Shown: positions 36,128-62,655 of the stretch, in pieces | Position numbering within the stretch: the stretch's first letter is position 1 | Layout: every line of letters begins with the position of its first letter | Virus record (IMG/VR): IMGVR_UViG_3300037119_005106 | Span: 16,500-80,499 of that record | DNA from: a virus | Reading direction: 5' to 3' (one strand) | DNA length: 64,000 nt | The notes under the pieces: generated by a model | What the model was told of the DNA's origin: nothing | The model's input: the letters and a program-made list of their open reading frames with translations, nothing else | Databases searched by the model: none | Program-made: the position numbers and the translations under genes

Positions 36128-36492
36128 TGGAACTATGTACCGCCTGTAAAACATATCAAGCAATTAAAGGACATCATCATTGCGAAAGCTGTAAAGGATT
36201 ATTTGAACACTCAATAATACCAGGCATCAAAAAGAAAATTATTTACATCAAATTCCGAGGTATAGATGATTGGCATAGAGCTGTATTTAAAGATATAAAT
36301 TCAGCAACTTATTATGGTGATTGTGATGCTAATAAAACTGGTAAGCCGGAAGATGTTATTGAATATTACAGAAATAATATCAATAAGCTAGAATACTTTG
36401 GAAACAGCTTTAACTGTGAACCCAATGGAGGATTGAATCCTAATCATCAACTTGAAATACTAACAACCAATGAGAATATCAATTCAAAATAA
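36127..36492 (+). CDS. Hypothetical protein with N-terminal Zn finger
   Basis: CxxC...CxxC; GIDDWHRAVFK and CEPNG motifs. Confidence 0.6.
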   Translation: MELCTACKTYQAIKGHHHCESCKGLFEHSIIPGIKKKIIYIKFRGIDDWHRAVFKDINSATYYGDCDANKTGKPEDVIEYYRNNINKLEYFGNSFNCEPNGGLNPNHQLEILTTNENINSK

Positions 36493-45964: not shown

Positions 45965-46252
45965 ATGACTATAGAAGATATTGCTAAAAAAGTTTCCAAA
46001 GAAACAGGAGAACCTGCTTATAAAATAAGCATAATATTAAAATCTACTTTCGAAGTAATACGAGCAGAAATACTAAAAGCTCAGATTATTAAAATCCGAG
46101 GGCTTATGTCTTTATTTATAGACGTGCTCCCCGAAGTAAAAAGGTATGATTTAATTGCTCAAGAAGTAAAAATACTTCCAAGAAGATTTACATTAAAAGT
46201 TGTTCCAAGCAGAAGACTTAAAAAAGAAATCGATGCGAAAAAAACATACTAA
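45965..46252 (+). CDS. HU/IHF-family DNA-binding protein
   Basis: MTIEDIAKKVSKETG...IKIRGLMSL...IL.RRFTLKVVPSRRLK. Confidence 0.85.
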   Translation: MTIEDIAKKVSKETGEPAYKISIILKSTFEVIRAEILKAQIIKIRGLMSLFIDVLPEVKRYDLIAQEVKILPRRFTLKVVPSRRLKKEIDAKKTY

Positions 46253-46577: not shown

Positions 46578-47945
46578 ATGTCACACACACCAATGACGGC
46601 TCCGGCTCAAACAAGTAATTTCCCTAAGAAAGAGAAAAATGAAAACCTACAATTAGTTCCTATGGGAATGCACCCAGCTATTATTTATGGCGTAGTAAAT
46701 GTAGGCACACAAGATGGAGAATGGCAAGGGAAAGCCACTTCTTCCAATAAGCTAAAAGTACTTATTGAATTTCCACAACATAGACAATTGTTTTGGAAAG
46801 AAGATACAGTTCCTACTCCATCAGCATTGATTATGGATTTCAATTACAGTGTTTCTAAAAATAAAAAGACTGGAAAGAAAAGCAACTTGTTGATTTTAAT
46901 AGAAAGCTTATACGGGCCACTTCAAGAATCTCAATATTTGAATTTTGACATTTCCCAATTGGCAACCATGAAAGTATTCGCTAACGTTCTTCACTATGTA
47001 AAACTAGATGGAACAACGGGAGCGAAGATTACAAACCTTGCACCATTCAATGCAAACATGGTGGATCCAAACTCTATTCAGTTAACAAACGAAGTACAAA
47101 TCTATTCTGTTCAGATGGGATATGAATGTATGTCTTTTGCAAAACTTTCCTATTTCTACAGAAACTTGATAAAAGATTCTCACGAAGGGAAAGCACATAT
47201 TGCTAAGGGTGGAAGATTCACTAAATTGAATGAAGCTGGAGAAATGATTATCGATGATGGTTCTGATAATTACACAGCAGCGCCTATGGGTAAAATTGTA
47301 ATGCTAGGAGATTTTAGCTATGATCAATTGAAAGGTGCTGGATGGACTGACCAAGCCATGATTGATAATGGTTATGCTAGGAGAGAAGCAGCTGCTCCCG
47401 TTCCTACACCAGCACCACAAATGGCACCAACACCTGTTCCACAAGCACAAGGAGTTCATCCAATAAACTTAACTCCTTCATCGAATCCAGCACATCAACC
47501 ACAAGCACCAATGTCAATTGCACCACAAATGCCTTTAGCAAGTGCTAATCCAACACAGCCAATGTTGACCATGATTGATAAATCAGCTACATACGATGAA
47601 TTTATTAAAATTGGATGGACTGATGCTTTGTTGATTCAACATGGAAAAGCAATATTGATGCCCGCTGCAAATGATGTGTTTCCACCATCAGGAGCAGTAG
47701 CACCACCACCGGTACAAGCGCCACCTGTTCAACAAGTGCCACAAGCACAGCCAATGGCTCAAGCAATTCCTACTCCGCAACCAAGCGCAGCAGCATTGTT
47801 TCAAGGAACACCAGCAGCACCGGTTCAGCAAGTACCTCAAGCGGGTATTCCACAAGCCATACCACCAGCACCAATCAGTTCTTTTGAACAAGCACCTGCT
47901 CCAATGATTGATGATGCAATGCCGGATGATTTACCTTTCGGTTAA
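46578..47945 (+). CDS. Phage ssDNA-binding-like replication protein with Pro/Ala/Gln tail, two GW(T)D micro-domains and C-terminal DDLPF
   Basis: PMGMHPAIIYGVVNVGTQ.EWQG N-domain; SSB-type acidic tip DDLPFG. Confidence 0.65.
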   Translation: MSHTPMTAPAQTSNFPKKEKNENLQLVPMGMHPAIIYGVVNVGTQDGEWQGKATSSNKLKVLIEFPQHRQLFWKEDTVPTPSALIMDFNYSVSKNKKTGKKSNLLILIESLYGPLQESQYLNFDISQLATMKVFANVLHYVKLDGTTGAKITNLAPFNANMVDPNSIQLTNEVQIYSVQMGYECMSFAKLSYFYRNLIKDSHEGKAHIAKGGRFTKLNEAGEMIIDDGSDNYTAAPMGKIVMLGDFSYDQLKGAGWTDQAMIDNGYARREAAAPVPTPAPQMAPTPVPQAQGVHPINLTPSSNPAHQPQAPMSIAPQMPLASANPTQPMLTMIDKSATYDEFIKIGWTDALLIQHGKAILMPAANDVFPPSGAVAPPPVQAPPVQQVPQAQPMAQAIPTPQPSAAALFQGTPAAPVQQVPQAGIPQAIPPAPISSFEQAPAPMIDDAMPDDLPFG

Positions 47946-47948
47946 GCC

Positions 47949-48317
47949 ATGAAAAAGTTAATCCAAACAAGGATGCACAATCCCCCTGTATCAAGGGGGA
48001 ATTGTTTACCAACAGTAATTGCTTGTTTCATGAATTTAGATTCTCCAGAAGATGTTCTGCAAATTCAAGAGAAGTTTAATGAAAAGGATTGGAATGTTCA
48101 GTTGTGGGAATGGTTAAACGGTAAAGGATGGGATTGGACTGTATTAAGAAACCATTTATTTGATAATACTTTTTATTGTGTAACTGGAAAAACCATAAGA
48201 GGAACTACACATATTTGTATTTACAGAAATGGAAAACTATATCACGATCCACATCCATCAGGAGAAGGGCTTATAACTGAAGATAGTTTTGAAGTTTTTG
48301 AGAAAGCAGAATCATGA
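47949..48317 (+). CDS. Papain-fold-like hypothetical protein
   Basis: GNCL..VIAC...THICIY...HDPHP (Cys/His/Asp). Confidence 0.4.
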   Translation: MKKLIQTRMHNPPVSRGNCLPTVIACFMNLDSPEDVLQIQEKFNEKDWNVQLWEWLNGKGWDWTVLRNHLFDNTFYCVTGKTIRGTTHICIYRNGKLYHDPHPSGEGLITEDSFEVFEKAES

Positions 48318-48700
48318 TTAAACTAGTCGTTAAAGACGGTAAGCCTATATTTGAGAATGATGCTTCCATAACTCTATACAATAGGGTTATGGCGGCTTAT
48401 TCCAATACAGGTAAAATATTAGTAATGACTATTGAAGAATGGAGTCCTGATGTAACTGATGCTCAGCATAAATTATTCAAAGCATTATTAGTAAAAGGTT
48501 CAGAAGCTTCGGGTTATACATACAAAGAATTCGAAGATGAACTGATAGACAACTTTGCTCCTTATAAATTCGAGAAAAATATATTTGATACAATCTCGAG
48601 AACAAAGAAAAAAGTTCTAGAAATGAATAACAAAGAATTTAATTTATTTATAGAACAAGCAATACAATTCTGTAATGAGTTCTATGGATTGAACTTTTAA
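48314..48700 (+). CDS. NinB/YbcN-like recombination-associated protein
   Basis: TDAQHKLF...GY....E...EMNNKEFNLFIEQ. Confidence 0.5.
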   Translation: MIKLVVKDGKPIFENDASITLYNRVMAAYSNTGKILVMTIEEWSPDVTDAQHKLFKALLVKGSEASGYTYKEFEDELIDNFAPYKFEKNIFDTISRTKKKVLEMNNKEFNLFIEQAIQFCNEFYGLNF

Positions 48701-48851
48701 ACTATGAGTATTTACATAGGAATATCACAAGCTGCAAGACTCGCAGCTGTATGGTCAAGGAATAGATTAGTGACACAATTATTACTATCAGCATCAATTG
48801 TAGCCTACTCACTATTACTTGTCGAAAGAAATAAGAAAATTAATAAATACT

Positions 48852-50183
48852 ATGAGCGAGATAATCCTAACGGAAAGCCAGAGAATAGCGGACAAGAAAA
48901 TAAAGAAGTTCCTAGAATCTGACCAAATGTTTTTTAGACTTACTGGACCACCTGGTTCAGGAAAGACATTTGTAATCAAACACGCGCTTGAGAAATATTT
49001 AAAGAAAGAAGAGGAAACCGACAAAGTGCAAGTTGTCGGTATCACTCTTTCTCATCAAGCCAAAAATGTATTACACAAAGCTTCCATAAAAAACTGTAGA
49101 ACATTTGCTGCAGCTTATGGATTTAAAGAAACCTATCACGAAGATGGTAGCAGAAGCTTTAAGCCAGCTTCTTATTTTGAAGAAAAACCAGTAGGACATT
49201 TAAACATACCGGTATTTGTCCATGATGAGATTTCACAATACTCTTATGAAATGAAGAAAATTGTGTTTGAAAAGACATCCTTATTCAGCAAGGTTATTCT
49301 AATGGGAGATCCGGCACAATTACCGCCTATTGATTCAAAGATGAAGCCTGACGAAGATAGTCCAATGTTTTTCTTTCCTGTACCTGATTGGTGCGAACAT
49401 GAACTTACCGAAAGAGTAAGACAAAAAGTAGGCAATCCAATATTAGACTTATCGGATATCATTCGTGAGGAAATATTTGGAGAACAGAACTTGGCAAGAG
49501 TAATACAAGAAATACTCAAACCAAAGTTATCTGAAGGAAAAGGATATCTATGCCTTGACAGGAGAGAACTCTTTCAAGAATATGCCAAATCCAACAATTT
49601 TCTAAACGACAAAATAATAGCATTTAGAAAATTCAAGGTTAAAGAATTGAATGAAGAAATTAGAAGAATGGTACATCCAGAATCCCATAATTATTTGAAC
49701 AAAATGGATTTGGTATTTATGAATAACAATTACAAGAACGAAGAATTCAATTACCGATTGATGAACTCCGACCAGTATATTATTCAGGATGTAAAAGTGG
49801 CTATGCAATGGCCACCTGGTTCCGATGTTGGTATCGAATGTTACCTTGGTCAAATACAAACCAATGCATACAAATCCTATATCATCACACCAACGGAAAA
49901 GGGATTGATTGAATACAACAAGACATTGAATAGGCTAAAAGCTTTTGCAAATCAGAATAGAGCCTTATGGCCAACCGTTCATGCTTTCATGGATTCGTTT
50001 TGTGACTTTACTATGGGATATGCAATAAACGCATACAAGTGCCAAGGAAGCACTTACGCTAACGTGTATATTGATTTGTTGGATATTCTAGAAACAGGGC
50101 CACTTACTCCAAAGAGAAAATTACAAACCATATTTACGGCTCTTACAAGAGCGACGGACGTATGTTATTTTATAAAACCATAA
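48852..50183 (+). CDS. SF1B Dda/RecD-like DNA helicase
   Basis: GPPGSGKT, DEISQ, MGDPAQLPP, RVRQ, YAINAYKCQGST and TALTRA; likely start MSEIILT. Confidence 0.9.
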   Translation: MSEIILTESQRIADKKIKKFLESDQMFFRLTGPPGSGKTFVIKHALEKYLKKEEETDKVQVVGITLSHQAKNVLHKASIKNCRTFAAAYGFKETYHEDGSRSFKPASYFEEKPVGHLNIPVFVHDEISQYSYEMKKIVFEKTSLFSKVILMGDPAQLPPIDSKMKPDEDSPMFFFPVPDWCEHELTERVRQKVGNPILDLSDIIREEIFGEQNLARVIQEILKPKLSEGKGYLCLDRRELFQEYAKSNNFLNDKIIAFRKFKVKELNEEIRRMVHPESHNYLNKMDLVFMNNNYKNEEFNYRLMNSDQYIIQDVKVAMQWPPGSDVGIECYLGQIQTNAYKSYIITPTEKGLIEYNKTLNRLKAFANQNRALWPTVHAFMDSFCDFTMGYAINAYKCQGSTYANVYIDLLDILETGPLTPKRKLQTIFTALTRATDVCYFIKP

Positions 50184-50185
50184 TT

Positions 50186-51016
50186 ATGGAAAATCAAATG
50201 TTCGCTCCCAAACAAGCGTTTACACAACAACCAAAGAAACATTTTGATAAAGTAGCTTTAATTGATGCTGATAAAATGAAACATTTGGTCGCTTACGATG
50301 TTTCGTGCGATTTAAAGAACAATATGCCAAGAACTCCTGATAGACTAGCTATGTTTATAGAAGAACGCTTGGCGGGGATATTTAATAGCTTTTCGGCTAG
50401 AGGATATATCTTTTGCTTTTCTGGAAAATCATCCAATACATTTCGTTATTCAGTTGCCGTTGAGAAAGAATACAAAGGTACAAGAAAAGATGATCCTAGT
50501 TTTTATGAAGGAAAGATTGAGGATATGGCAGAAGTAGTTAGGGTAGTAATGAATTCTCATCCTACTCTAATCTATAGCGACTTGGAAGCAGACGATATCG
50601 TTTGCTTTTTACAAACTCCTGATACCTTTGTCTATTCCAATGATAAGGATTTGAATCAGATACCTGGTTGGCATTTTGATTTTATCAAAAAGGATTTATT
50701 CGAGGTATCAGAAGAAGAAGCTTTTAGGAATTTATGCAAGCAACTTCTTTTGGGAGATACAACGGATTGCATTCCCGGATTAAAAGGATGGGGACCAAAG
50801 AAAACAGAAACCTTTATGGAAAAGGTTGGTACCAAGCAATTGATAAATAAAATATTGATTGAGTACCAAACAGCTATGGGACTTACCAAAGGAACAGATG
50901 CTTTTGTAGAGTCATGGAACTTGGTAAAATTAAGACCTAATCGCGGTACATACTTCATCAAGAAATATGAATCAGCATTCAATCTATTAAACATCATTTT
51001 AACTAATTCGAAATAA
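50186..51016 (+). CDS. 5'-3' exonuclease/flap endonuclease
   Basis: LIDAD, YKGTR, LEADD, DKDLNQIPG and GDTTDCIPGLKGWGPK. Confidence 0.9.
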   Translation: MENQMFAPKQAFTQQPKKHFDKVALIDADKMKHLVAYDVSCDLKNNMPRTPDRLAMFIEERLAGIFNSFSARGYIFCFSGKSSNTFRYSVAVEKEYKGTRKDDPSFYEGKIEDMAEVVRVVMNSHPTLIYSDLEADDIVCFLQTPDTFVYSNDKDLNQIPGWHFDFIKKDLFEVSEEEAFRNLCKQLLLGDTTDCIPGLKGWGPKKTETFMEKVGTKQLINKILIEYQTAMGLTKGTDAFVESWNLVKLRPNRGTYFIKKYESAFNLLNIILTNSK

Positions 51017-51018
51017 CC

Positions 51019-51216
51019 TTGGAAGAGAAAGCTTGTAAAAAATGTAACGCAGTAAAGCCATTAACAGAGTTTAATGATACAGTCATACTAACAAAAAGAA
51101 GTGATTGTAAGACTTGTCAAAGCGCATATACAACAGCTTATTATTTTGCTAATAAGCAACGCATTCGCAATAATGCAAAACTTAGAAGAAACAGAGCTAA
51201 AAATTTTAAAAAATAA
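51019..51216 (+). CDS. Small Zn-finger protein
   Basis: CKKC...KPLTEF...CKTC. Confidence 0.55.
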   Translation: MEEKACKKCNAVKPLTEFNDTVILTKRSDCKTCQSAYTTAYYFANKQRIRNNAKLRRNRAKNFKK

Positions 51217-52589
51217 TGAAAAATTCAGAAGAAAAATTAGGAGGTTATACTGCTACTGAATGGATTGATATGATTGAAGATGGAGTAGTAGCCGAAATAT
51301 CAAATGAAGTATCAGCTTTTATAGCACCACTTGTAAACAATAAATTAAACCAAATGGAAAACAAATTAATGCCACCGCCACCACCATCAAATGAATTGGT
51401 AATCTTCTCACAAGAGCAATTGAATATTTTGCCACAAGAAGCAAAGGATAGTGTTATCTCTTTGGAGAAAAATCTTCCTCAAAAAGAACTATTGATTTTA
51501 AATCCTTTGGTTTCGGAATTACTAAAAGTAAAGGAATTGGCAAAATTAAAATACGAGCCACTTCCTGAAGAACCAACCAAAGAAGATATTGAAAAACATA
51601 ATATCAATATCCAAGAATTCAAAGATGCTAAAAAATCCATAACAGCTTTGAAACAACAAAATGAAAGCGCCAAAACAGCTATCAAGAAACCTCTTGATAC
51701 TTTAGGCAAGCAAGTATTAACTTTTGAGAAATCAGTTAATACAATAGCTGTAGATGTGCTTACCACTTTGGAAAAAACTTTCAAGATTTGGATTGATGCC
51801 GAAGCTGCTAAAGCTAAAGCAAAAGCGGATGCAAAAACAGAAAAAGCAAACGCAGCAATAAATGCTTTAAGCGAACAGAACCAAGCACAGGCTAATACAT
51901 TCAAGAAAAGCACATTGATTACCTTCTTGAAATATGAAATGCTTGGGCCATTAAAATTAGAAGTAAATGGAGCAATTGAAAACTATTCATTAGACAAATT
52001 ATTTGTACTTCGTGATGGACTAGTTTTAAGAACCTTTGAAAGCTTTACTGCAGAAAAGGAATTGAACTTATTAGATGATGAAGAATTGACAAATATCAAG
52101 AAGTTCTTCAGTGATGAAATTGATTTATTCAGAAAATCTATCAACACAAAGATTGAAGCTTTAGAATTGGCTAAGACAAATGAAAAGTTGGTTGATACAG
52201 TAGAAACTCAAGCAGAACAATTATCTACTCCACCACCGCCACCACCACTAGGAACTTCTCCAATTGCCAATACAAATGTATTTGAGCAAATCAATGACAA
52301 GTCAGGAGTTCCATACGGACAAGGAGCAAATCAAAACACTGTTCCGGTGGATATCTTTCCAAAGAATCCAAACGATGTGGATTTCTTAGATTTGGTTATT
52401 GATCAGATTAATTCTTGTCGCGATAATGTGAAATACATTCGTGATAGATTTGTAACCACAACCGAGATAGTAAAATCAGAAGATGATTTGGTAAATATCA
52501 CAAGAGTGGGTGGCTCACTTCATTTATTAGACAAAACAATTGCCTACATTCTTGGTCAATTACCACCAAAGGACGGAACCACTAAATAA
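51216..52589 (+). CDS. Coiled-coil protein with polyproline tracts (DUF1351-like core)
   Basis: KKSITALK...AIKKPLD pattern; two PPPPP runs. Confidence 0.5.
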   Translation: MKNSEEKLGGYTATEWIDMIEDGVVAEISNEVSAFIAPLVNNKLNQMENKLMPPPPPSNELVIFSQEQLNILPQEAKDSVISLEKNLPQKELLILNPLVSELLKVKELAKLKYEPLPEEPTKEDIEKHNINIQEFKDAKKSITALKQQNESAKTAIKKPLDTLGKQVLTFEKSVNTIAVDVLTTLEKTFKIWIDAEAAKAKAKADAKTEKANAAINALSEQNQAQANTFKKSTLITFLKYEMLGPLKLEVNGAIENYSLDKLFVLRDGLVLRTFESFTAEKELNLLDDEELTNIKKFFSDEIDLFRKSINTKIEALELAKTNEKLVDTVETQAEQLSTPPPPPPLGTSPIANTNVFEQINDKSGVPYGQGANQNTVPVDIFPKNPNDVDFLDLVIDQINSCRDNVKYIRDRFVTTTEIVKSEDDLVNITRVGGSLHLLDKTIAYILGQLPPKDGTTK

Positions 52590-52597
52590 CTTTAAAT

Positions 52598-53257
52598 ATG
52601 AAAAAAGTATTAATTATGTTTCCAGCATTGGAAAAAGGAATCATCAAAACCAAATCAGAAGCATCAGAACCTTATAACTACGTGTCCATTATCAACGGGC
52701 ACGCAGTTGTAGTTACTCCTTATTCAAGCATTTTCATAGACCTTAATGATTACTTCATTAACTATATGACAATCGTGGACGATCATAGAGAGGGATTTGA
52801 TGAACTGATGAAATGGATGGAAGGGAAACACTTCACTTCCGAGTTTTGGAGTTATCTTACCCATTGGAATACTATCTATGTAGTAAACGAAAAGAGTATT
52901 AAAATTAGTGGAGATAATTTCGAAAAGGAATTGCATTACACCCACGATGATGAAGTTGATATCAAGAATGTTTTGAATATGTTAGTAAACAATTTCAAAG
53001 CCGGAAAGAATCAATTAGCATCTATCGGGGTATCCAATTACACTTTGAAGATTATCGACAAAACTATTGGTAAAATCATTCAGAAGAATCCTTTGATATT
53101 TGAATTCATATCATTGAATGCTACCATTCGTTTTACCGTTGATAGTATGCCTTGTGTTTTTGGAATAATCCTATCCAGCAATGCGCTTACTACCAAACAA
53201 TTTTTGTTTGATGGATTCAAGAATTTTGCTATGAAAGCCGAACTAAAATTATTGTAA
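52598..53257 (+). CDS. Hypothetical replication-module protein
   Basis: Alpha/beta ORF, no motif recognised. Confidence 0.55.
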   Translation: MKKVLIMFPALEKGIIKTKSEASEPYNYVSIINGHAVVVTPYSSIFIDLNDYFINYMTIVDDHREGFDELMKWMEGKHFTSEFWSYLTHWNTIYVVNEKSIKISGDNFEKELHYTHDDEVDIKNVLNMLVNNFKAGKNQLASIGVSNYTLKIIDKTIGKIIQKNPLIFEFISLNATIRFTVDSMPCVFGIILSSNALTTKQFLFDGFKNFAMKAELKLL

Positions 53258-53258
53258 A

Positions 53259-53549
53259 ATGGAAACAGGTGTAGAAATAATCGCCAAAGAGCGAAAAAGA
53301 CAAATTGAAGAATTGGGTTATGATTATACTCACGATCATTTGTATGCTAATGAACAACTTGCAAAGGCTGCATCAGTATATGCTTTACCTGAGAAGTTAA
53401 GACACTTATCTTTCTTTTCATTCGCAAGTATTTGGCCTTGGGATTTGCGTTATTGGAAACCAACTCCACAAGACAGAGTTCGTGAACTTGCTAAAGCTGG
53501 TGCTTTGATAGCTGCTCAAATTGATTATGAACTAGCAAAAGAAAAATAA
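53259..53549 (+). CDS. Conserved phage helical protein (ER.RQI...HD...WPW...WKP family)
   Basis: IAKERKRQIE...HD...WPWDLRYWKPT...RELAKAGALIAAQID. Confidence 0.7.
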   Translation: METGVEIIAKERKRQIEELGYDYTHDHLYANEQLAKAASVYALPEKLRHLSFFSFASIWPWDLRYWKPTPQDRVRELAKAGALIAAQIDYELAKEK

Positions 53550-54217
53550 TGGCAACAGAACAGAATCAATTAGAAACCTATTTTGAGTGGTACATCAACG
53601 AACTCAAAGAAGCTGGCTACATTAAGTTAGTAAAGCGAGAAGCTTTTTCTATATTGGTAAGTGATGCTGTAGAACGTACTCGTTACGACTTCTCAGTAAA
53701 AACACCAAGGATAGAGAACTACAAACTATTCCAAAAGAATACCTATCTCTATGATTGGGTAATCATCTGGGAGAAGCACGCTCACGAGATATTTTATAAT
53801 CTGCTTGATGATAATCCACTTAGGATTTTTTGTCCATTCTACGCAGTTATTGATAGCCAAGGAGAGCATATTTCTTTCGTGGATGTAAAACCACCATCAG
53901 GCGCTATGCAGTTCGGAAATAATACTTCTGCTTACACCTTTCCAATCATTCAAAAGATTATTTACACCGTATATGGAATTTATGTAAACAAAGCTATTCC
54001 AATTCCACTTATGGCAAAAGGAGTAGTGAAGTCAGGAAACAAACAAGCTTTATTCCTAACAACATTTGTTCCTAAGCGATATCTACTTACTGATGGTGGA
54101 ATGCAAGGAAGGGATATCAAGTTCCGTAAGCAATCGCTTAAGGAATATGTAGCCTACAAGCTAAAAGAAATAACCCGAATAAATACTTTATTCAACAAAC
54201 AAACAGAATTGCTATAA
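53549..54217 (+). CDS. Putative PD-(D/E)XK nuclease
   Basis: E..F...L..AG, Y.YDW and FVDVKP. Confidence 0.55.
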   Translation: MATEQNQLETYFEWYINELKEAGYIKLVKREAFSILVSDAVERTRYDFSVKTPRIENYKLFQKNTYLYDWVIIWEKHAHEIFYNLLDDNPLRIFCPFYAVIDSQGEHISFVDVKPPSGAMQFGNNTSAYTFPIIQKIIYTVYGIYVNKAIPIPLMAKGVVKSGNKQALFLTTFVPKRYLLTDGGMQGRDIKFRKQSLKEYVAYKLKEITRINTLFNKQTELL

Positions 54218-54714
54218 TGAAAAATGAAGATATAATTAAAACGCTAAACTACTTTCAATCCAATGCTTTCAAAACATACAAATCGCTTGGGTTCGGTGCC
54301 GATAATGCCAATATCATTTTTGGTATTATCATTGAAATGAGAAACCTGGTTACTGCTGCCGAAGCTGAGGACACAATCCTATTACATAAATATATGGGAG
54401 AGTGCGCTAACTACATAGCCAATTACGCTGTTGTTCACAGCTTGAAGCTTTCAGAAGTACTTACCAAGAAATCACATTCTGAAATGGCAGAAGCTACCGA
54501 CTTGGTAGATCTAGAATATTATCTTGAAAAGATAAAGGATGATTTAGGATTTGTCAAAGACATGCAAGAGAATGAAAAAATAGAATTCATTCAAAAATGC
54601 TGGATTTGCACATTCCCTGAAGAGTATCACGATGATTTTATAAAAACGGATAGAATCCTAAGAGCCAACATCGAGGACAACAAAGTAAAATATCCTCAAG
54701 CATTCACAAAATAA
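54217..54714 (+). CDS. Divergent MazG-like NTP pyrophosphatase-fold protein
   Basis: FQSNAFKT...GIIIE...MGE..NY.A...ANIE.NKVKYP..F. Confidence 0.5.
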   Translation: MKNEDIIKTLNYFQSNAFKTYKSLGFGADNANIIFGIIIEMRNLVTAAEAEDTILLHKYMGECANYIANYAVVHSLKLSEVLTKKSHSEMAEATDLVDLEYYLEKIKDDLGFVKDMQENEKIEFIQKCWICTFPEEYHDDFIKTDRILRANIEDNKVKYPQAFTK

Positions 54715-54746
54715 TAAACAATCAATAATCAATAAAAACAATCATT

Positions 54747-55889
54747 ATGAAATTTTTCGAAACATTAGTACAAACAGGAATTAAAGATGTAGTATTTCAA
54801 GTAAAACAAGATGACAAAGGTTTATTAACCGTCTTTATTACTCCTAAATCAATAGCCAATGATTCTGCTTTAAAAGAGTTAAAACCAATCATTCTATCAG
54901 GAACAGTTGAAGATATGGATGAAGGATTCTTTGAAGCAATATCTCCAGCTCTTGAGCAAGCACAAAAACTATTCTCTAATGTGGTGGACTTCGAAGCACA
55001 ATTAGCTGAAATCGCTAAAGCTACTGCCGATAAGAAGAAAACCAAAGCACCTGTAAAAGCTGAGAAGTCAGAAGATGATGGAGAGGAAAAGGATGAAGAA
55101 GAAACTGCTGCAAAAGAGAAAGTTGTAAAAGTAAACAACGAGAAAGTATTCAAAGACTTTATCACTTCTATCAAAGCGAAGCCAGAACCATTAACCAACC
55201 ACACAGAAAAAATAGAAGAACTGTATGCTTTGCTTACGGATGTTGAGAAAGAGAAAGCACCTATCAAGAAAATAAGAACGGAGTTTGATGCAGCGGTTAA
55301 GAAAGCAAATGATATTGCTAAAGCTAAAGCACAATTTGCACCAAAAGCTGAAACAGAATCAGTTTCAGTAGGAGAAGAAACAGTTATCATAGATATTCCA
55401 GCTACTCCAATTCCAGAGGAAGAAATCCCAAACGTGGAAAATGTTGGAGCCGTAGAGGAAGTTGTCGTTGAGGAAGAAGAAGTTGCTGAATTGGTTACTG
55501 CAATGGTAGAAGATTTTCCAATAGAAGAAGTTGAGGAAGTAGTTGAAGAAACATCATTCACTTCTAAAGAAGATTTCTTGAAAAAGAATAATCCAGTTGA
55601 GGATATACCAGTAGTTGCTGAAACACTTCCATCGATGCCTTCTGCTCCAACACCACCAGCACCATCAATTCCTGTTCCGGCACCAGCTCCAGTATTCGAA
55701 GAAGTGGATGTATTGGTTATGATTAATCAAGACTTCTCTAAAGAAGATTTCCTTGCTGCTGGATGGGATGAGGATAAATTGGTTCAAGCCGGTCACGCCA
55801 AATGGGAAAAACAAATGGTTGAGGTAGCCAAACCAAAACTATCTTATGCTTTTCCAAAACCTTTTGATGCGGAAGAAACAGAAGCATAA
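54747..55889 (+). CDS. PRTRC system protein E with long acidic extension
   Basis: MKFFETL...LTVFITPK...LKPIILSGTVEDMDEGFFEAISPAL...LFSNVVDFE. Confidence 0.85.
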   Translation: MKFFETLVQTGIKDVVFQVKQDDKGLLTVFITPKSIANDSALKELKPIILSGTVEDMDEGFFEAISPALEQAQKLFSNVVDFEAQLAEIAKATADKKKTKAPVKAEKSEDDGEEKDEEETAAKEKVVKVNNEKVFKDFITSIKAKPEPLTNHTEKIEELYALLTDVEKEKAPIKKIRTEFDAAVKKANDIAKAKAQFAPKAETESVSVGEETVIIDIPATPIPEEEIPNVENVGAVEEVVVEEEEVAELVTAMVEDFPIEEVEEVVEETSFTSKEDFLKKNNPVEDIPVVAETLPSMPSAPTPPAPSIPVPAPAPVFEEVDVLVMINQDFSKEDFLAAGWDEDKLVQAGHAKWEKQMVEVAKPKLSYAFPKPFDAEETEA

Positions 55890-55956: not shown

Positions 55957-56178
55957 ATGGCTTTAGCAAAACAAGAATTAAAAAGAAAGTTCACAGTAAA
56001 AGTAGGAAGCAATTCAGTAACGCTTGAGGATCCAAATCCTAATTTCTCAGCGCAAGAAGTAATGGAAATGTATTCCACACAATATCCACAATTAGTCAAT
56101 GCAAACATAGAAAGCAAAGGAATTGTGGAAGATTGTATTTTGTTCAATTTCGCAACCGTTGCCGGAACTAAAGGATAG
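55957..56178 (+). CDS. PRTRC protein C, prokaryotic ubiquitin-like modifier
   Basis: L.R.F...L.DPNPNFSAQEV..MYS..YPQL.NA...F.TVAGTKG with C-terminal Gly. Confidence 0.9.
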   Translation: MALAKQELKRKFTVKVGSNSVTLEDPNPNFSAQEVMEMYSTQYPQLVNANIESKGIVEDCILFNFATVAGTKG

Positions 56179-56182
56179 TATC

Positions 56183-56362
56183 ATGAACGCTATTCAATTT
56201 TTAAAATTTCTAAAAGAGCAGCCTAAACCAAAGGCTGCTACTTTGGATACTAATTTTGGAGGATTATGGGACAAGATAAAAAGACAGCAAGAAACCGAAT
56301 ATCAAAACGGAACACAACAAGTTCAAATGCTGTTAAGCAAAGAAAAAATATTTTTCAGTTAG
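56183..56362 (+). CDS. Small PRTRC-linked hypothetical protein
   Basis: MNAIQFLKFL..., start 4 nt after the Ubl stop. Confidence 0.45.
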   Translation: MNAIQFLKFLKEQPKPKAATLDTNFGGLWDKIKRQQETEYQNGTQQVQMLLSKEKIFFS

Positions 56363-57330
56363 TTAAGGGAGATTCCATATACAAAGCTCTTCCAGAAATT
56401 CACAGTCAAATAAGAGATAAATTCATTTTTGCTGAAAACCTAATCAGCTTCCTAAAGGAAAAGCACAACGAAGAATTAGAAAGTCTTTCCTTCAATCCCA
56501 TCAAAGACGATATCAATACATTAATCAATAGCCTTATAAATACAATCATTAGGCTTGGCTACATTATTGTATTTGATAACTACAACCAAGACAATACAGA
56601 TCTAAAAATTCTGTATAGTATTGGAGATATGGAATTCATGTGGTATCTGATAGAATATAAAAAGATAAACAACATTGAATCCGAAGAAATACGCATTGGC
56701 TTTACTTATTTACTAGACAGAATCGCTACACAAACAGAAGCCTATCCTGATGTTTTCCAATATGAATACTTTCAAGAAGATGATAACTGTTTTCAAGGAG
56801 AATTCGAAATGCTATTTGATGAAGAAAGATTCGCTGACGAAGAAGATAATATAGACGAAGGAATGCTTCAAGAAATGCAAGAAGAAAAGAAAGAAGAACT
56901 TGCTAGGCTTCGCAAATGGAAAGACTTATACACACTTTATTTCTATCAGTCTTATGATCGATTCCTAGAATACGTTCCCAAAAATAAAGACGAAGAAGAA
57001 TTCAAAGAATTTATCATAAAAGGAATGGCTATTGATTACAGTATTCCTAACAAATTTATGGATGGAGAAGATATTAGTTCAGATGGCGGAATTAGCTTCT
57101 CTCAAAACACAATGGTAAGTTTTGATTTCTCACAAGGAGTAGAAGAACAATGGTTCGAAATGATGGAAGAATATGGATATAACGGTTCTTCACAACCTGT
57201 AGGATGGTATGAGGTTTCGAAAGAAGGAGTAGTTAATAAAACCAGCCAACAAGACATTACCGACCTAAAAGCAATCTACCAATACATTTTAGATTTATAC
57301 GAAAACCATTTAAACAAATTGGAAAAATGA
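56266..57330 (+). CDS. PRTRC protein F-like acidic protein
   Basis: Position between C and B, size and acidity; no motif confirmed. Confidence 0.55.
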   Translation: MGQDKKTARNRISKRNTTSSNAVKQRKNIFQLVKGDSIYKALPEIHSQIRDKFIFAENLISFLKEKHNEELESLSFNPIKDDINTLINSLINTIIRLGYIIVFDNYNQDNTDLKILYSIGDMEFMWYLIEYKKINNIESEEIRIGFTYLLDRIATQTEAYPDVFQYEYFQEDDNCFQGEFEMLFDEERFADEEDNIDEGMLQEMQEEKKEELARLRKWKDLYTLYFYQSYDRFLEYVPKNKDEEEFKEFIIKGMAIDYSIPNKFMDGEDISSDGGISFSQNTMVSFDFSQGVEEQWFEMMEEYGYNGSSQPVGWYEVSKEGVVNKTSQQDITDLKAIYQYILDLYENHLNKLEK

Positions 57331-57995
57331 GTTATATAACCTCTTCAAACGAACAGCATTTAAAATTTGTGCTATGCGCTTATGATAACAAAATGATTTA
57401 TCATGACTATAATCATAAGACGGATGAACTATCAGCGGGAAAGATGCTGACTGTTGATGCAGCGAAAACATTGTTTAAGTTCTCTAATGAGATTAACTCC
57501 ATGAAGCAATATGAATTCAATGGAATTATCCCAAGCAATGTTTTAAGATTTAAGACAGATGAAAAATATATCATCTGGGAAACGGAACCTGGGATAAAAG
57601 AAATTTTATATCATGAAAGCCTTCCTGTAAAATCAGGGAAGTATTGGGTACCAAGAATGATTTGGAAACTAAACGCCAATTCTCTTTCAGTTCATGCTAT
57701 TATGAAGGAAGTAAAATCAGAAAAGGACAAGCTATACAATGCTCCATTCTTCAATGTAAGCAAAGGCGGTAGTGTGTGTATGGGTAATACCAAGTTCACA
57801 GACCAAGGCTACAATTATGAAAAAATCATGAAGAAAGTTGAGGAAGGATTTTGGGGTTCAGTTTTTACACATAGCAATAATGATGCATTACTACATTTCA
57901 ACTTTGTTGAATGGTGTAACAATCCAAAATTAAATCAAATGCAATGCAATGATTTATTGGTAGATTCTGAAAAAACAATTAAAAGTATATTGTAA
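57327..57995 (+). CDS. PRTRC protein B, prokaryotic E2 family D
   Basis: L.AGK.LT, IIP.NVL, VPRMIW, LYNAPFFNV...GSVCMGN and FWGS.FTH. Confidence 0.88.
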   Translation: MSYITSSNEQHLKFVLCAYDNKMIYHDYNHKTDELSAGKMLTVDAAKTLFKFSNEINSMKQYEFNGIIPSNVLRFKTDEKYIIWETEPGIKEILYHESLPVKSGKYWVPRMIWKLNANSLSVHAIMKEVKSEKDKLYNAPFFNVSKGGSVCMGNTKFTDQGYNYEKIMKKVEEGFWGSVFTHSNNDALLHFNFVEWCNNPKLNQMQCNDLLVDSEKTIKSIL

Positions 57996-58273
57996 TGAGC
58001 GCAATTAAAATTTATAACCAAGCAGAAAGAAACGGAATTTATTTTTATACTGACTGTACTAGCATTACTATTACACAGCACGAAAAATTAATGGAAAATT
58101 CCACTAAAGCAAACGGAAAAAAAATCAGACAATTGATTAAAAATAATTGTTCCGATTTATATGAAAGTTTAGGTTTAGAATTTCCTAATCCTTACGAATA
58201 TAAAAGCCGAAAAAAAGAAGGATTATTAATTTACGTACATTCATCAATTGAATATTTTTTCAAAATAAATTAA
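57995..58273 (+). CDS. AT-rich hypothetical protein inserted in the PRTRC cassette
   Basis: NPY...LIYVHSSIEYF; lower GC than its neighbours. Confidence 0.55.
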   Translation: MSAIKIYNQAERNGIYFYTDCTSITITQHEKLMENSTKANGKKIRQLIKNNCSDLYESLGLEFPNPYEYKSRKKEGLLIYVHSSIEYFFKIN

Positions 58274-58275
58274 TC

Positions 58276-59061
58276 ATGAAAAAAGAAACCATTCATTACG
58301 CTCCTGAATACTTCATAAGTCCGCAACATCCAGTTTCAATAGCGCTTATAGGGGCTGGAGGTACAGGCTCATTAGTTGCTCCAAGATTGGCAAGACTAGA
58401 TTATGTCTTAAAAGAATTAGGATTGCCCGGATTATATGTAATCGTTTATGATGGTGACACCGTAGAACAAAACAATGTAGGCAGACAGAATTTCAGCAAG
58501 AATGATATCGGCGATTATAAAGCAGCCAATATTGTTCAGAAGATAAATATGGCTTACGGGTTGGACTGGGAATGCAAGAATGAATATGTTGGAGATAAGA
58601 TTCCTGATGCCAATATTGTTATTTCTTGTGTTGACAATGTAGAGCTTCGAAACAAAATCCATAAAAAAAGAGAAGAGAAATCAATCATAAACAGAATTGA
58701 TTATACTACTCCTTTCTATTGGTTGGATTGCGGTAATGGAAAGGATTTTGGTCAAGTAATCTTATCAACAATATTCGATATCCACCAACCTGAGAAATCA
58801 GTATTCAAATGCCAAAAAAGACTTCCATCAGTCATTGATATCTATGGAGAACTTTCTCAATATGATACCAAAGAATCCCAAGGTATTGAGGGATGCTCTA
58901 TGGCTGAGAGTTTATCCAAGCAAGATGTATTCATTAATGATGAGATTGCTATACAGGCTGTAAAAATAGTGCAACAGTTGGTTCGTAATTATAGAATATC
59001 ATATCATGGCGCTGTAGTCAATCAGGCAACTAGTAAAGTAATCGGAATACCTATTCCATAA
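58276..59061 (+). CDS. PRTRC ThiF-family E1-like enzyme
   Basis: IGAGGTGS, DGDTVEQNNVGRQ, CVDN, YWLDCGN and CSMAESLSKQDVFIN. Confidence 0.92.
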   Translation: MKKETIHYAPEYFISPQHPVSIALIGAGGTGSLVAPRLARLDYVLKELGLPGLYVIVYDGDTVEQNNVGRQNFSKNDIGDYKAANIVQKINMAYGLDWECKNEYVGDKIPDANIVISCVDNVELRNKIHKKREEKSIINRIDYTTPFYWLDCGNGKDFGQVILSTIFDIHQPEKSVFKCQKRLPSVIDIYGELSQYDTKESQGIEGCSMAESLSKQDVFINDEIAIQAVKIVQQLVRNYRISYHGAVVNQATSKVIGIPIP

Positions 59062-60732: not shown

Positions 60733-62655
60733 ATGATACTAAAAGAAACAATTGACAAAGTATTTGCTCTCGACATTGTGGATGTTATCAAGGACTATGT
60801 AAAACTTAAAAAAACGGGAGCAAACTACAAAGGACTCTCCTGCTTTACCGACGAACGAACGCCATCATTTACCGTATCACCAGCTAAAGGAATATTCAAA
60901 TGTTTCAGTAGTGGGAAAGGTGGCAACTTGGTAAAGTTCATCATGGAAAAGGAGCTGATGAATTATCCTGAAGCTTTGAAGTTTTTATGTAAGCGCTTTA
61001 ACATCGAGTGCTTGGAATCGGAAGAAACCAACGAAGAGAAAATACTTTCACAGAAAAAGGAATCCATGCACATCATCAATACTGCTGCATTGAATTTCTA
61101 TAAACAGAATCTCAACTACTTCCAAGAGGTTTTGAACTATGTCTATGGAGAGCGACAGATTTCCGCAGAAATGGTAAACAAGTTTGAGATAGGATTTGCA
61201 CCAAGCACCATTTCGGGATTAACCAACCATTTAATCAATGCTGGTTACAATTGGCAATTAGCAGTTGAAAACTCTGTACTGGGTTACATTCCTGAGAAGA
61301 ACAATCTCTATGACAGGTTTCGGAACAGGGTAATGTTTCCAATAAAAAATATATCTGGAAATGTTATTGGCTTTGGTGGTCGCTCATTGGCTCCCAATGA
61401 AAAGAACGCGAAGTATCTGAACAGTTCCGACAGTATTCTTTACAATAAGAGTGAAGCACTCTTTGGGATATTTGAAAGCAAGAAAGCGATCATTGACAAA
61501 AACCAATGTTTATTATCCGAAGGATATTTGGATGTGGTTATGTTCCATCAAAAAGGAGTAGAGAATATTGTAGCATCATCCGGAACAGCACTTACCATAG
61601 AACACGTAAAACTGATTAAAAGGTTTACCAAAAATGTGGTCGTGGTTTTTGATAATGACAAAGCCGGAATACGAGCAACGCTAAAAGGAATTGATATTCT
61701 TTTGGCCGAGGAAATGTATGTGAAAGTTTTAATCCTACCACAAGGACAAGATCCGGATGATTTTGCTAAAGCAAGGAATAAGGAAGAAATAGAAAAATAC
61801 ATTCTAGATTATTCCCAAGACTTTGTTTTATTCAAACTCAATCATTTGCTAATGGAAGCTAATGGCGATTTGAATTTAGCATCTAAAGCAGTAGAAGATG
61901 TATTGGAGAGTATTGCCAAAATGCCAGACGTAGTACGTCGGGAAGTCTATTTGAAAGAGTGCGCTGCCATATCCAAAATTAGTATTGATATGCTCCGCAT
62001 CACGCTGAGAAAACATATAGCAGATGAAATAGCTTTCAGTCCATCGGTGCCACAAAACTTCTACGAACAGTTTATGTCCAACAGGAACTACATCCAAACC
62101 CAATGCGAGAAGAAAATACTCCAATATGTGTTGGCTTATGGTAGTTTGGAATTGACTTTCAAAGAAGTGCTATTGGACAAGGCTGGTACCGCTACGCATC
62201 AGTATTTCAAAGAAAGACCATTTGATGCCAGGAGAACGGTTTTGGATAAAGTGAAATATGAATTGGAAACCGATGGAATCCATTTTCTGAACATCACTTA
62301 CTCTCACATATACGAGAGAGCCAAATTAGCCGATTTAAGGAACTTTAATTCTTTAGAGCATCATTTGGACACCGAAACCTATTTGTTAGCTATTGAGTTA
62401 AGGAATGAGGAACTGACAGGGAACAGGAATACTTTTTCCTATGGCGCTTCGATAGGAGTTCAGGAACAAAATATAATTCCTAATCTTCATGAATACTTAC
62501 AAGCTTCCATAAAAGAGAACTTGCTTTTCTATAAAGTGATGTATATCGAATGGCTGATTGAGGAAGAGAGCAAAAAGAACATACCCAACAAGGAGAATGT
62601 GAAAGATTATATTGAACTGATCATTCGCATTAAAAAAGAACTTAATACTATTTAA
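60733..62655 (+). CDS. dnaG: DNA primase (DnaG-type)
   Basis: Zn-binding domain variant, DRFRNRVMFPI, GFGGR, KYLNS, EGYLDV, FDNDKAG and DPDD. Confidence 0.95.
   Translation: MILKETIDKVFALDIVDVIKDYVKLKKTGANYKGLSCFTDERTPSFTVSPAKGIFKCFSSGKGGNLVKFIMEKELMNYPEALKFLCKRFNIECLESEETNEEKILSQKKESMHIINTAALNFYKQNLNYFQEVLNYVYGERQISAEMVNKFEIGFAPSTISGLTNHLINAGYNWQLAVENSVLGYIPEKNNLYDRFRNRVMFPIKNISGNVIGFGGRSLAPNEKNAKYLNSSDSILYNKSEALFGIFESKKAIIDKNQCLLSEGYLDVVMFHQKGVENIVASSGTALTIEHVKLIKRFTKNVVVVFDNDKAGIRATLKGIDILLAEEMYVKVLILPQGQDPDDFAKARNKEEIEKYILDYSQDFVLFKLNHLLMEANGDLNLASKAVEDVLESIAKMPDVVRREVYLKECAAISKISIDMLRITLRKHIADEIAFSPSVPQNFYEQFMSNRNYIQTQCEKKILQYVLAYGSLELTFKEVLLDKAGTATHQYFKERPFDARRTVLDKVKYELETDGIHFLNITYSHIYERAKLADLRNFNSLEHHLDTETYLLAIELRNEELTGNRNTFSYGASIGVQEQNIIPNLHEYLQASIKENLLFYKVMYIEWLIEEESKKNIPNKENVKDYIELIIRIKKELNTI

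What the first reader, a model, noticed from the sequence alone, without database searches (positions are those of the whole stretch)
46578..55889. Shared ~28-aa GW(T/D) micro-domain links PRTRC-E and the SSB-like protein
Seen: MLGDFSYDQLKGAGWTDQAMIDNGYA (47301-47378) and MIDKSATYDEFIKIGWTDALLIQHGKA (47571-47651) in the DDLPF-tailed protein, and MINQDFSKEDFLAAGWDEDKLVQAGHA (55719-55799) at the end of PRTRC-E. Each copy sits beside a Pro/Ala-rich linker. PRTRC-E is usually much shorter, so this looks like a phage-specific graft. Inference: a common docking module, perhaps a small UBA-like helical bundle binding the Ubl or a shared partner, recruits the Ubl machinery to the replication fork.
Basis: partly seen in the sequence, partly recalled or inferred. 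Interest (0 to 1): 0.75.

Follow-up and report, generated by a model that had tools for sequence, protein, structure and literature searches.

The report
Phage SSB-tail mini-domain on PRTRC-E
A small folded module of about 35 residues that many phages hang on the floppy tail of their single-stranded-DNA-binding protein has also been added to protein E of this phage's ubiquitin-like (PRTRC) cassette, which probably sends that unstudied cassette to the same place as the replication protein; what the module binds is still unknown.

Summary
The three peptides are at the stated coordinates. Their similarity is significant: leave-one-out profile E 9e-5 within the genome, profile-profile E 7e-11. Every homologue of both proteins keeps the module.

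It is not UBA-like. AlphaFold2 predicts strand-helix-helix-strand (pLDDT 75-88). No Pfam family and no solved structure covers it.

It is widespread and phage-specific. A 75-copy profile finds 1,097 protein clusters among 1.84 billion. Most are C-terminal tails (1-4 copies) of Gp2.5/Enc34-type and DUF669-type phage SSBs. Rarer carriers are a DNA polymerase and phrog_11133 proteins.

Only 1 of 40 module-bearing viral genomes encodes a Prok_Ub, so Ubl binding is not its general role. One plasmid PRTRC-E lacks the module, which fits a graft. The PRTRC-E copy most resembles SSB copy B.

Best reading: a portable protein-docking module of phage SSB tails, copied onto PRTRC-E so that the cassette shares the SSB's location or partner. 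The partner is unidentified. The one complex prediction gave no verdict.

This scan reached the same reading earlier on other DNA (e1-5868861, e1-145066).

The parts
46578..47945 (+). SSB-like protein, 455 aa: OB-fold N-domain, two mini-domains in a Pro/Gln/Ala-rich tail, and an acidic tip
   Evidence: ORF. 38 homologues. AF2 model. No Pfam or PHROG hit. NCBIfam NF046043 at 68.4 bits, below its cut-off of 75.
46635..47261 (+). N-terminal OB-fold domain (about aa 20-228), DUF669-like at fold level
   Evidence: pLDDT above 85. Best PDB match is PrgE (Z 6.9), followed by RPA, LEF-3, Pf3 SSB and cold-shock domains. BFVD matches include DUF669 proteins.
47286..47396 (+). Mini-domain copy A (aa 237-273)
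   Evidence: Predicted strand 240-242, helices 248-253 and 258-263, strand 267-269. W256, D258, G265 and A267 are invariant.
47556..47669 (+). Mini-domain copy B (aa 327-364)
   Evidence: Predicted strand 329-332, helices 339-344 and 349-354, strand 358-361. G346, W347 and G356 are invariant.
47925..47942 (+). Acidic tail tip DDLPFG. Homologues end DDLPF, a bacterial SSB-Ct-like tip.
54747..55889 (+). PRTRC system protein E, 380 aa, extended form
   Evidence: PF19556 on aa 2-162. TIGR03741. 12 homologues. AF2 model.
55704..55817 (+). Mini-domain copy on PRTRC-E (aa 320-357)
   Evidence: Predicted strand 317-325, helices 332-337 and 342-347, strand 351-359, pLDDT 85-88. W340 is invariant.
55836..55886 (+). 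Conserved C-terminal short motif of the phage PRTRC-E proteins (K-L-S-Y-x-F-P-K-P-F-D-A-E-E)
   Evidence: It is unique in the genome.
55957..56178 (+). PRTRC-C, a Prok_Ub ubiquitin-like protein
   Evidence: PF14454, 64.4 bits. TIGR03738.
57327..57995 (+). PRTRC-B, Prok-E2_D (E2-like)
   Evidence: PF14460, 80.2 bits. TIGR03737 is below its cut-off.
58276..59061 (+). PRTRC ThiF-family E1-like protein
   Evidence: TIGR03736, 215 bits against a cut-off of 144.75. PF00899.

Best explanation
The repeat is a portable mini-domain of about 35 residues, predicted as strand-helix-helix-strand, with consensus h-x-M-h-x5-T-Y-E-x-h-h-x-x-G-W-T-D-x-L-L-I-Q-H-G-h-h. Phages attach it by disordered Pro/Ala-rich linkers to the C-terminal tails of their ssDNA-binding proteins. 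There it most likely acts as a protein-protein docking element, as the acidic tips of T7 gp2.5 and bacterial SSB do.

In this crAss-like lineage the SSB-like protein carries two diverged copies plus a classical DDLPF tip. A third copy, most like SSB copy B, has been grafted behind the PRTRC-E core. PRTRC-E would then be an adaptor: its N-domain belongs to the Ubl/E2/E1 cassette, and its tail module takes it to whatever the SSB tail contacts. That would place the cassette at SSB-coated ssDNA or the replisome.

Shown here: the homology, the conservation, the distribution, and the addition to the PRTRC-E core. Predicted: the fold. Inferred: that the module binds a protein, which partner it binds, and the co-localisation.
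For: Significance and conservation.

Fold: the same strand-helix-helix-strand topology was predicted independently in the three window copies (pLDDT 75-88), embedded in low-confidence linkers.

Distribution:
- 1,097 cluster representatives at E <= 1e-3 and 266 at E <= 1e-10.
- Of the 109 top full-length carriers, 77 match phrog_7011 and 32 match phrog_112 (both Gp2.5-like SSBs), 7 match phrog_6015 (SSB, PF05037/DUF669) and 3 match the window-type family phrog_862.
- In 71 of 109 the last copy ends within 2 residues of the C-terminus, and copy number is 1-4. This is the place where known SSB tips sit.
- The same SSB core carries other tails elsewhere: acidic in Enc34 (PMC5686142) and Q/G-rich in Pseudoalteromonas phage PY6. 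Tails are exchangeable modules.

Repeated copying onto other proteins of the same phage: PRTRC-E here, phrog_11133 proteins in L039 and L067 whose copies are near-identical to the copy on their own SSB, and a DNA polymerase insertion in L063.

Origin of the PRTRC-E copy: 45% mean identity to SSB copy B against about 35% to copy A or to Gp2.5-type tails.

The module coexists with DDLPF or DDIPF tips in several SSBs, so the two are not redundant.

It is nearly absent from 185,579 prokaryote genomes: 4 small MAG contigs.
Against: No binding partner is identified and nothing here shows binding.

In about 30 of 40 module-bearing genomes the SSB is the only carrier. A second module-bearing protein is therefore not needed for its basic function.

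No phage-encoded replisome protein family is shared between this phage and the Enc34-type phages. This phage has no family A or B polymerase. The Enc34-type module consists of helicase phrog_16, exonuclease phrog_69 and a family A polymerase. A single common phage partner is therefore hard to name.

The fold rests on AlphaFold2 with shallow alignments (24 and 12 rows). 'SSB' is inferred from an OB fold with modest scores (Z 6.9). The PRTRC-E copy in this window is the most diverged of its family.
Confidence: 0.6

Rival explanations
1. Homotypic 'sticker'. The modules bind each other, module to module. That would give SSB cooperative assembly or condensate-like clustering on ssDNA. Any other protein given a module (PRTRC-E, phrog_11133, the polymerase) would join the SSB assembly directly, with no third partner.
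For: The only component guaranteed to be present in every module-bearing phage is the SSB itself. Tandem arrays of 1-4 copies on flexible spacers are a multivalent layout. The module has many hydrophobic positions for its size. Copies on different proteins of one phage are unusually alike in L039 and L067.
Against: Copies A and B of the window family are only about 36% identical to each other, yet each is conserved at 53-60% across genomes. That suggests two distinct specificities, not one generic self-contact. Many SSBs carry a single copy. No oligomer evidence was obtained.
Confidence: 0.2
2. One reading: a UBA-like domain that binds the PRTRC Ubl (or the E1 or E2), so that the SSB and PRTRC-E are both Ubl receptors.
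For: The module sits on a PRTRC protein, directly upstream of the Ubl gene, in this lineage. UBA-sized helical modules on linkers are a known way to bind ubiquitin (general knowledge).
Against: Prok_Ub is found in only 1 of 40 module-bearing viral genomes, and 27 of 28 near-complete ones lack it. The predicted topology has two helices flanked by strands, not a three-helix bundle. No UBA or other Pfam match was found for 75 copies. The plasmid PRTRC-E lacks the module.
Confidence: 0.05
3. Intramolecular regulator. The module folds back on the OB domain or its ssDNA groove, in cis or on a neighbouring SSB. It would tune ssDNA affinity or ss/ds discrimination, as the acidic tails of T7 gp2.5 and Enc34 ORF6 do. 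On PRTRC-E it would then bind the SSB's OB domain.
For: Acidic tails of T7-type SSBs compete with ssDNA for the binding surface and set ssDNA specificity (PMC5686142). The module occupies the same terminal position and is neutral to acidic.
Against: The module sits on at least four unrelated or very distant SSB cores: phrog_7011/112, phrog_6015, and the window type. One module is unlikely to fit all their grooves. It also occurs inside a polymerase.
Confidence: 0.1
4. A helix-hairpin-helix-like nucleic-acid contact. The G-W-T-D turn between two helices would act like the hairpin of an HhH or SAM-like motif and touch the DNA backbone.
For: One carrier (P0040) gave a sub-threshold match to the SMF/DprA SAM domain: PF25317, 23.4 bits against a cut-off of 27.
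Against: The match did not recur among 75 copies. The turn is followed by Asp/Glu, and the module lacks conserved basic residues.
Confidence: 0.04

Closest known systems
C-terminal tail of bacterial SSB (disordered linker plus acidic tip ...DDDIPF, SSB-Ct) and the acidic Phe-tipped tails of T7 gp2.5 and gp4
   Same: It has the same position, on or at the end of a disordered SSB tail. It has the same presumed logic, a handle for partner proteins, and the handle is sometimes shared by other replication proteins of the same phage. The window protein also has a true DDLPF-type tip.
   Different: The handle here is a folded, largely hydrophobic mini-domain of about 35 residues with an invariant Trp, not an acidic linear peptide. 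It occurs in 1-4 tandem copies, can be internal, and coexists with the acidic tip. Its partner is unknown.
Enterobacter phage Enc34 ORF6 / PF10991 (DUF2815) and PHROG phrog_7011 'Gp2.5-like ssDNA binding and annealing protein'
   Same: Most carriers have this SSB core. The phrog_7011 profile already contains the module at its positions of about 246-301 of 303.
   Different: Enc34 ORF6 itself has an unstructured acidic tail (PMC5686142). The window protein's N-domain does not match phrog_7011 or PF10991; only the module is shared.
UBA domain (PF00627)
   Same: Similar size, on flexible linkers, next to ubiquitin-like machinery in this phage.
   Different: UBA is a three-helix bundle. The module is predicted as strand-helix-helix-strand, has no sequence match, and is found mostly in genomes without any Ubl.
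PRTRC system protein E of plasmids and ICEs (PF19556, TIGR03741)
   Same: The N-terminal 160 residues and the operon order E-C-(F)-B-(D)-ThiF are the same.
   Different: The phage form has an extra acidic and Pro-rich linker, the SSB-tail mini-domain and a conserved F-P-K-P-F-D tail. The Tunicatimonas plasmid protein has a disordered tail ending N-S-Y-F-H-F and no module.

Membership tests
UBA domain | Compact three-helix bundle of about 40 residues | tested here: not met
   AF2 predicts two short helices flanked by two strands in all three copies. This is a prediction only.
UBA domain | Match to the Pfam UBA profile | tested here: not met
   A Pfam scan of 75 copies at E <= 1 lists no UBA family. 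Scans of the carriers gave none either.
UBA domain | Binds ubiquitin or a Ubl | not testable with these tools
   Indirect only: 39 of 40 module-bearing viral genomes have no Prok_Ub.
PRTRC system protein E | Profile match above the curated cut-off | tested here: met
   PF19556 at 64.1 bits against 26. TIGR03741 at 47.3 bits against 37.95.
PRTRC system protein E | Encoded next to PRTRC-C (Ubl), PRTRC-B (E2-like) and the PRTRC ThiF protein | tested here: met
   No ParB gene was looked for.
Bacterial/phage SSB with SSB-Ct tail | OB-fold DNA-binding domain | tested here: inconclusive
   OB-fold matches only: PrgE at Z 6.9, rmsd 5.6 over 119 residues, then RPA, LEF-3 and Pf3 SSB at Z 3.6-4.5. Foldseek E 1e-3. 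BFVD shows DUF669 proteins. No SSB Pfam or PHROG hit.
Bacterial/phage SSB with SSB-Ct tail | Disordered linker ending in an acidic tip with a terminal Pro-Phe | tested here: met
   All full-length homologues but one (P0039, which ends in a module copy) end D-D-L-P-F or close variants. The window copy has one extra Gly. The linker has pLDDT below 50.
Bacterial/phage SSB with SSB-Ct tail | Binds ssDNA | not testable with these tools
   An EMSA with purified protein is needed.
phrog_7011 / PF10991 Gp2.5-like SSB | Profile match of the core domain | tested here: not met
   The window protein has no PHROG or Pfam hit. Only the tail module is shared with these families.
Helix-hairpin-helix / SAM-like motif | Profile match and a G-h-G hairpin with basic residues that contact DNA | tested here: inconclusive
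   One sub-threshold PF25317 hit in P0040 and none in 75 copies. The turn is G-W-T-D, followed by acidic residues.

The most novel reading that the evidence does not exclude
The module is a self-associating 'sticker' that assembles phage SSB on ssDNA. By carrying the same sticker, PRTRC-E enters that assembly as the substrate adaptor of the Ubl/E2/E1 cassette, so that the phage conjugates its Ubl to the SSB-like protein or to proteins bound to it. One possible site is the Lys of the H-G-K turn, which copies B and E of this lineage keep. This would give the first substrate and cellular site for a PRTRC system, and a phage that uses ubiquitin-like tagging to control its own replication.
Probability: 0.1. 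Interest if true: 0.85.

Novelty: new variant of a known kind. Interest (0 to 1): 0.6.

Why it matters
SSB tails are the hubs that organise replication, recombination and repair proteins on ssDNA. The textbook handle is a short acidic peptide. Here a folded mini-domain takes that place in more than a thousand phage protein clusters. It has no Pfam entry and no solved structure, and I could find no mention of it in the searchable literature. A large part of phage replisome organisation may therefore use an unstudied contact.

PRTRC cassettes (Ubl, E2-like, ThiF E1-like, plus proteins D, E and F) have had no known function or substrate since they were defined. Finding an SSB-tail module grafted on protein E gives a concrete, testable lead: E is an adaptor, and the cassette acts at SSB-coated DNA. 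A cultured phage with the module on its SSB, Stenotrophomonas phage B2, makes part of this testable at the bench.

Tried and rejected
- Complex prediction of SSB copy B (aa 322-368) with the PRTRC-E copy (aa 312-362): no verdict, score 0.00, controls not run. It is evidence neither for nor against binding.
- tblastn of both whole proteins against 50,697 phage records: no match.
- Scan of genome contigs with the PRTRC-E N-domain: no relative found. Typical PRTRC-E length therefore rests on the Pfam and TIGRFAM model lengths and one plasmid example.
I could not check whether more distant SSB relatives (P0022, P0031) have a PRTRC cassette.
- Profile against all PDB sequences: only chance-level hits, E above 1.
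- ESM Atlas by features, named clusters: no usable hit. By structure it returned the same module on Enc34-type SSBs.
- Pfam: sub-threshold hits only, to PF25296 'Decapeptide' and SepQ; not members.
- The NCBIfam name 'phage replication initiation protein, NGO0469 family' for the N-domain was rejected as a functional label. The score is below the cut-off, and the name goes back to a 26%-identity BLAST match in 2007.
- Search for a phage helicase shared between this phage and the Enc34-type module: no significant similarity.
- P0112, a 1,166-aa repeat protein, was set aside as a false positive of the wide search.
- Literature searches for the motif, for PRTRC function and for crAss-like Ubl systems gave nothing relevant.
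- Chance similarity and recent DNA duplication were both rejected.
Full report
**1. What is in the window**

ORF 46578-47945 (+) encodes a 455-aa protein, and ORF 54747-55889 (+) encodes a 380-aa protein. The three quoted peptides translate exactly as written.

The 380-aa protein is PRTRC system protein E. PF19556 matches residues 2-162 at 64.1 bits against a cut-off of 26, and TIGR03741 also matches. It is followed by:
- PRTRC-C, a Prok_Ub protein (55957-56178);
- an unassigned 354-aa ORF;
- PRTRC-B, Prok-E2_D (57327-57995);
- a 92-aa ORF;
- the PRTRC ThiF protein (58276-59061).

The surroundings are a replication arm:
- HU-like protein (45965-46252);
- SF1 helicase (48819-50183);
- 5'-3' exonuclease (50162-51016);
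- DnaG-type primase (60733-62655);
- SF2 helicase (36470-39055).

The genome is one 80.5-kb contig with 34% G+C, and CheckV rates it complete.

**2. Is the similarity real?**

Yes.
- BLASTP of the two proteins aligns only these stretches (E 3e-4 and 7e-4).
- A profile built from the two SSB copies alone retrieves the PRTRC-E copy as the only further hit in the six-frame translation of the whole genome (E 9e-5). The genome holds exactly three copies.
- Homologues were found in the 5.8-billion-protein collection: 38 for the 455-aa protein and 12 for PRTRC-E. All 36 SSB-like relatives examined carry the module: 34 have two copies and two truncated sequences (P0029, P0030) have one. All but P0039 and those two truncated sequences end in D-D-L-P-F or a close variant. 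All PRTRC-E relatives keep one copy, followed by a conserved tail Y-x-F-P-K-P-F-D-A-E-E.
- Within the alignments the module columns are conserved (invariant Trp, near-invariant Gly-Trp-Thr-Asp and a C-capping Gly). The linkers between them change length and sequence.
- Profile-profile comparison of the two families aligns only the module: 97.1% probability, E 7.3e-11, 41 columns.
- At the DNA level the three copies share only 31 of 114 positions. They are old copies maintained by selection on the protein.

**3. What the unit looks like**

AlphaFold2 was run with the family alignments. For the 455-aa protein it gives a confident N-domain (residues about 20-225, pLDDT above 85) and low-confidence linkers. 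Two islands have pLDDT 75-83 and the order strand, helix, helix, strand (240-269 and 329-361).

The PRTRC-E model gives the same order at 317-359 with pLDDT 85-88. The unit is therefore about 32-38 residues: a hydrophobic strand (h-x-M-h), a helix (T-Y-E-x-h-h), a G-W-T-D turn that caps the second helix (x-L-L-I-Q-H-G), and a closing hydrophobic strand. It is not a three-helix UBA bundle. The fold is a prediction from shallow alignments.

**4. The carrier called 'SSB-like'**

There is no Pfam or PHROG hit. The N-domain model matches OB folds:
- PrgE of pCF10 is best (Z 6.9, 119 residues).
- RPA, baculovirus LEF-3, Pf3 SSB and cold-shock domains follow.
- In BFVD it matches many uncharacterised phage proteins (E down to 5e-14) and DUF669 proteins.

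NCBIfam gives a sub-threshold match to 'phage replication initiation protein, NGO0469 family' (68.4 bits against 75). That name goes back to a 26%-identity BLAST match reported in 2007 (PMC1931599), so I give it no weight. An OB fold, a long Pro/Gln/Ala linker and a D-D-L-P-F tip are the architecture of an SSB. ssDNA binding itself is inferred, not shown.

**5. Where else the module occurs**

I fetched 68 viral loci with a referenced alignment of eight copies. In most of them the module is the extreme C-terminus (G-W-T-D-A-L-L-I-Q-H-G-M-M-x-x, then stop) of a 250-350-aa protein. The contigs range from 30 to 68% G+C. The carriers are:
- Gp2.5-like SSBs (phrog_7011, phrog_112; Pfam PF10991, Enc34_ssDNA-bd);
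- a phrog_6015/DUF669 SSB;
- a relative of the window protein ending D-E-S-D-V-P-F;
- two phrog_11133 proteins of unknown function;
- one family A-type DNA polymerase, in which the module plus a zinc-ribbon-like stretch is inserted in the middle of the polymerase, at residues 461-490 of the open frame.

A 75-copy profile (A4) was searched against 1.84 billion cluster representatives. It found 1,097 proteins at E <= 1e-3 and 266 at E <= 1e-10. At least one of these is a false positive (P0112).

Of the 109 top carriers of at least 200 aa:
- 77 match phrog_7011, 32 phrog_112, 7 phrog_6015 and 3 phrog_862;
- 71 end within two residues of the last copy;
- copy number is one in 43, two in 56, three in 9 and four in 1;
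- seven also end in a D-L-P-F or D-I-P-F type tip.

Sources name almost all of them 'hypothetical protein'. One is B2_20 of the cultured Stenotrophomonas phage B2.

The module on DUF669-type SSBs aligns to the window family at E 3.9e-13, again with only the module aligned. No Pfam family and no PDB sequence covers it. The phrog_7011 profile contains it silently at its C-terminal end. A scan of one genome for each of 185,579 prokaryote species found it on only four small MAG contigs. It is essentially a phage module.

**6. Tails are exchangeable**

The same Gp2.5/Enc34-type core carries different tails:
- an unstructured acidic tail in Enc34, where the authors call that tail characteristic of all prokaryotic and phage SSBs (PMC5686142);
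- a Q/G-rich tail in Pseudoalteromonas phage PY6;
- the mini-domain in phage B2 and hundreds of uncultured phages.

The module has also been copied within genomes onto other proteins. In L039 and L067 the copy on the phrog_11133 protein shares idiosyncratic residues with the copy on that phage's own SSB. In the window's lineage the PRTRC-E copy is on average 45% identical to SSB copy B, against about 35% to copy A or to Gp2.5-type tails. The one plasmid PRTRC-E I could retrieve (Tunicatimonas pelagia, 254 aa) has the N-domain and a disordered tail but no module.

**7. What it does**

The position, the linkers, the exchangeability with acidic tips and the copying onto other replication-arm proteins all point to a docking element.

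In about 30 of 40 genomes the SSB is the only carrier. The basic function therefore does not need a second module-bearing protein.

The usual neighbours of Gp2.5-type carriers are a phrog_16 helicase, a phrog_11133 protein, a phrog_69 exonuclease and a family A polymerase. The window's phage has no detectable family A or B polymerase, and its SF2 helicase is unrelated to phrog_16.

That leaves three candidates for the partner:
- the SSB assembly itself, through module-module or module-OB contacts;
- a host protein conserved across phyla;
- different partners in different lineages.

Copies A and B of the window family are only about 36% identical, yet each is conserved at 53-60% across genomes. 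This argues that they are not interchangeable.

My one complex-prediction job (SSB copy B with the PRTRC-E copy) gave no verdict and counts for nothing either way.

I therefore commit to this reading: a portable SSB-tail docking module, grafted on PRTRC-E so that the cassette shares the SSB's partner or location (0.6). The main rivals are a homotypic sticker (0.2), an intramolecular or OB-binding regulator (0.1), Ubl binding (0.05) and an HhH-like DNA contact (0.04).

**8. Comparison with what is known, and novelty**

It works like the SSB-Ct tip of bacterial SSB and the acidic tails of T7 gp2.5 and gp4. It is not a member of that class. It is folded, hydrophobic, Trp-centred, often repeated, sometimes internal, and it coexists with a true tip. 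It is not a UBA domain.

I found no description of it in Pfam, the PDB or the searchable literature. Two earlier follow-ups of this scan reached the same reading on other genomes (e1-5868861 for the SSB plus PRTRC-E pair, e1-145066 for the SSB-tail module). My searches were made independently and agree with them.

I class it as a new variant of a known kind (SSB tail handles), with interest 0.6. The module is widespread and unstudied, and its presence on PRTRC-E is the first concrete lead to where a PRTRC cassette acts. The partner and any binding remain to be shown.

Noticed in passing
window 47925-47945: The window's SSB-like protein ends D-D-L-P-F-G (TTC GGT TAA). All homologues that keep the tip end at the Phe. 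In bacterial SSB the free carboxylate of the last Phe is part of the contact, so the extra Gly may weaken or change tip binding, or it may be a sequence variant.
   Followed up: partly
window 55836-55886: The phage PRTRC-E proteins share a second conserved element after the module: a terminal short motif K-L-S-Y-x-F-P-K-P-F-D-A-E-E, unique in this genome. It looks like another linear docking motif with an unknown reader.
   Followed up: partly
whole genome G000 (window = G000:C1:16500-80499): No family A or family B DNA polymerase is detectable in a genome that CheckV rates 100% complete, although primase, helicases, FEN and an SSB-like protein with a host-type DDLPF tip are present. The phage may depend on the host replicase.
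   Followed up: partly
L063:1415-3997 (module at L063:2786-2899): A phage family A-type DNA polymerase carries the mini-domain plus a C-x-x-H...C-P-W-C zinc-ribbon-like stretch as an insertion in the middle of the protein (residues 461-490 of the open frame). It lies next to an SSB whose tail has diverged copies of the module.
   Followed up: partly
L039:3282-4067, L067:2839-3864; also P0067, P0102, P0134, P0142, P0174, P0177, P0191: A family of unknown function (phrog_11133) lies in 32 of 64 loci, in the same replication module as the exonuclease and SSB genes. It has a conserved P-W-D-x-R-I-H...D-G-x-W-K-x-K-R-G motif and often a D-L-I-K-D-W end, and it carries one to three copies of the SSB-tail module in some phages.
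   Followed up: partly
L074:4598-5362 (Tunicatimonas pelagia plasmid): An ordinary plasmid PRTRC-E also has a long disordered Pro/Glu/Gln-rich tail, ending in the aromatic peptide N-S-Y-F-H-F. This suggests that PRTRC-E proteins in general are adaptors with a tail handle.
   Followed up: no
window 46635-47261: NCBIfam would nearly name this N-domain 'phage replication initiation protein, NGO0469 family'. The name traces to a weak 2007 BLAST match, and the fold is an OB fold like DUF669 SSBs, so the family name is probably misleading.
   Followed up: partly
L073:5977-6630 (Pseudoalteromonas phage vB_Psp_PY6): A Gp2.5-type SSB homologous to the module-bearing ones ends instead in tandem G-G-F-G-Q-Q-Q-T-A-P-Q-Q-Q-A-Q repeats. 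This is a third kind of SSB tail on the same core.
   Followed up: no
window 56266-57330 and 57995-58273: Two ORFs inside the PRTRC operon (354 aa, very acidic, and 92 aa) match no Pfam, PHROG or NCBIfam model, including the PRTRC-F and PRTRC-D models. They may be divergent F and D proteins or lineage-specific additions.
   Followed up: no
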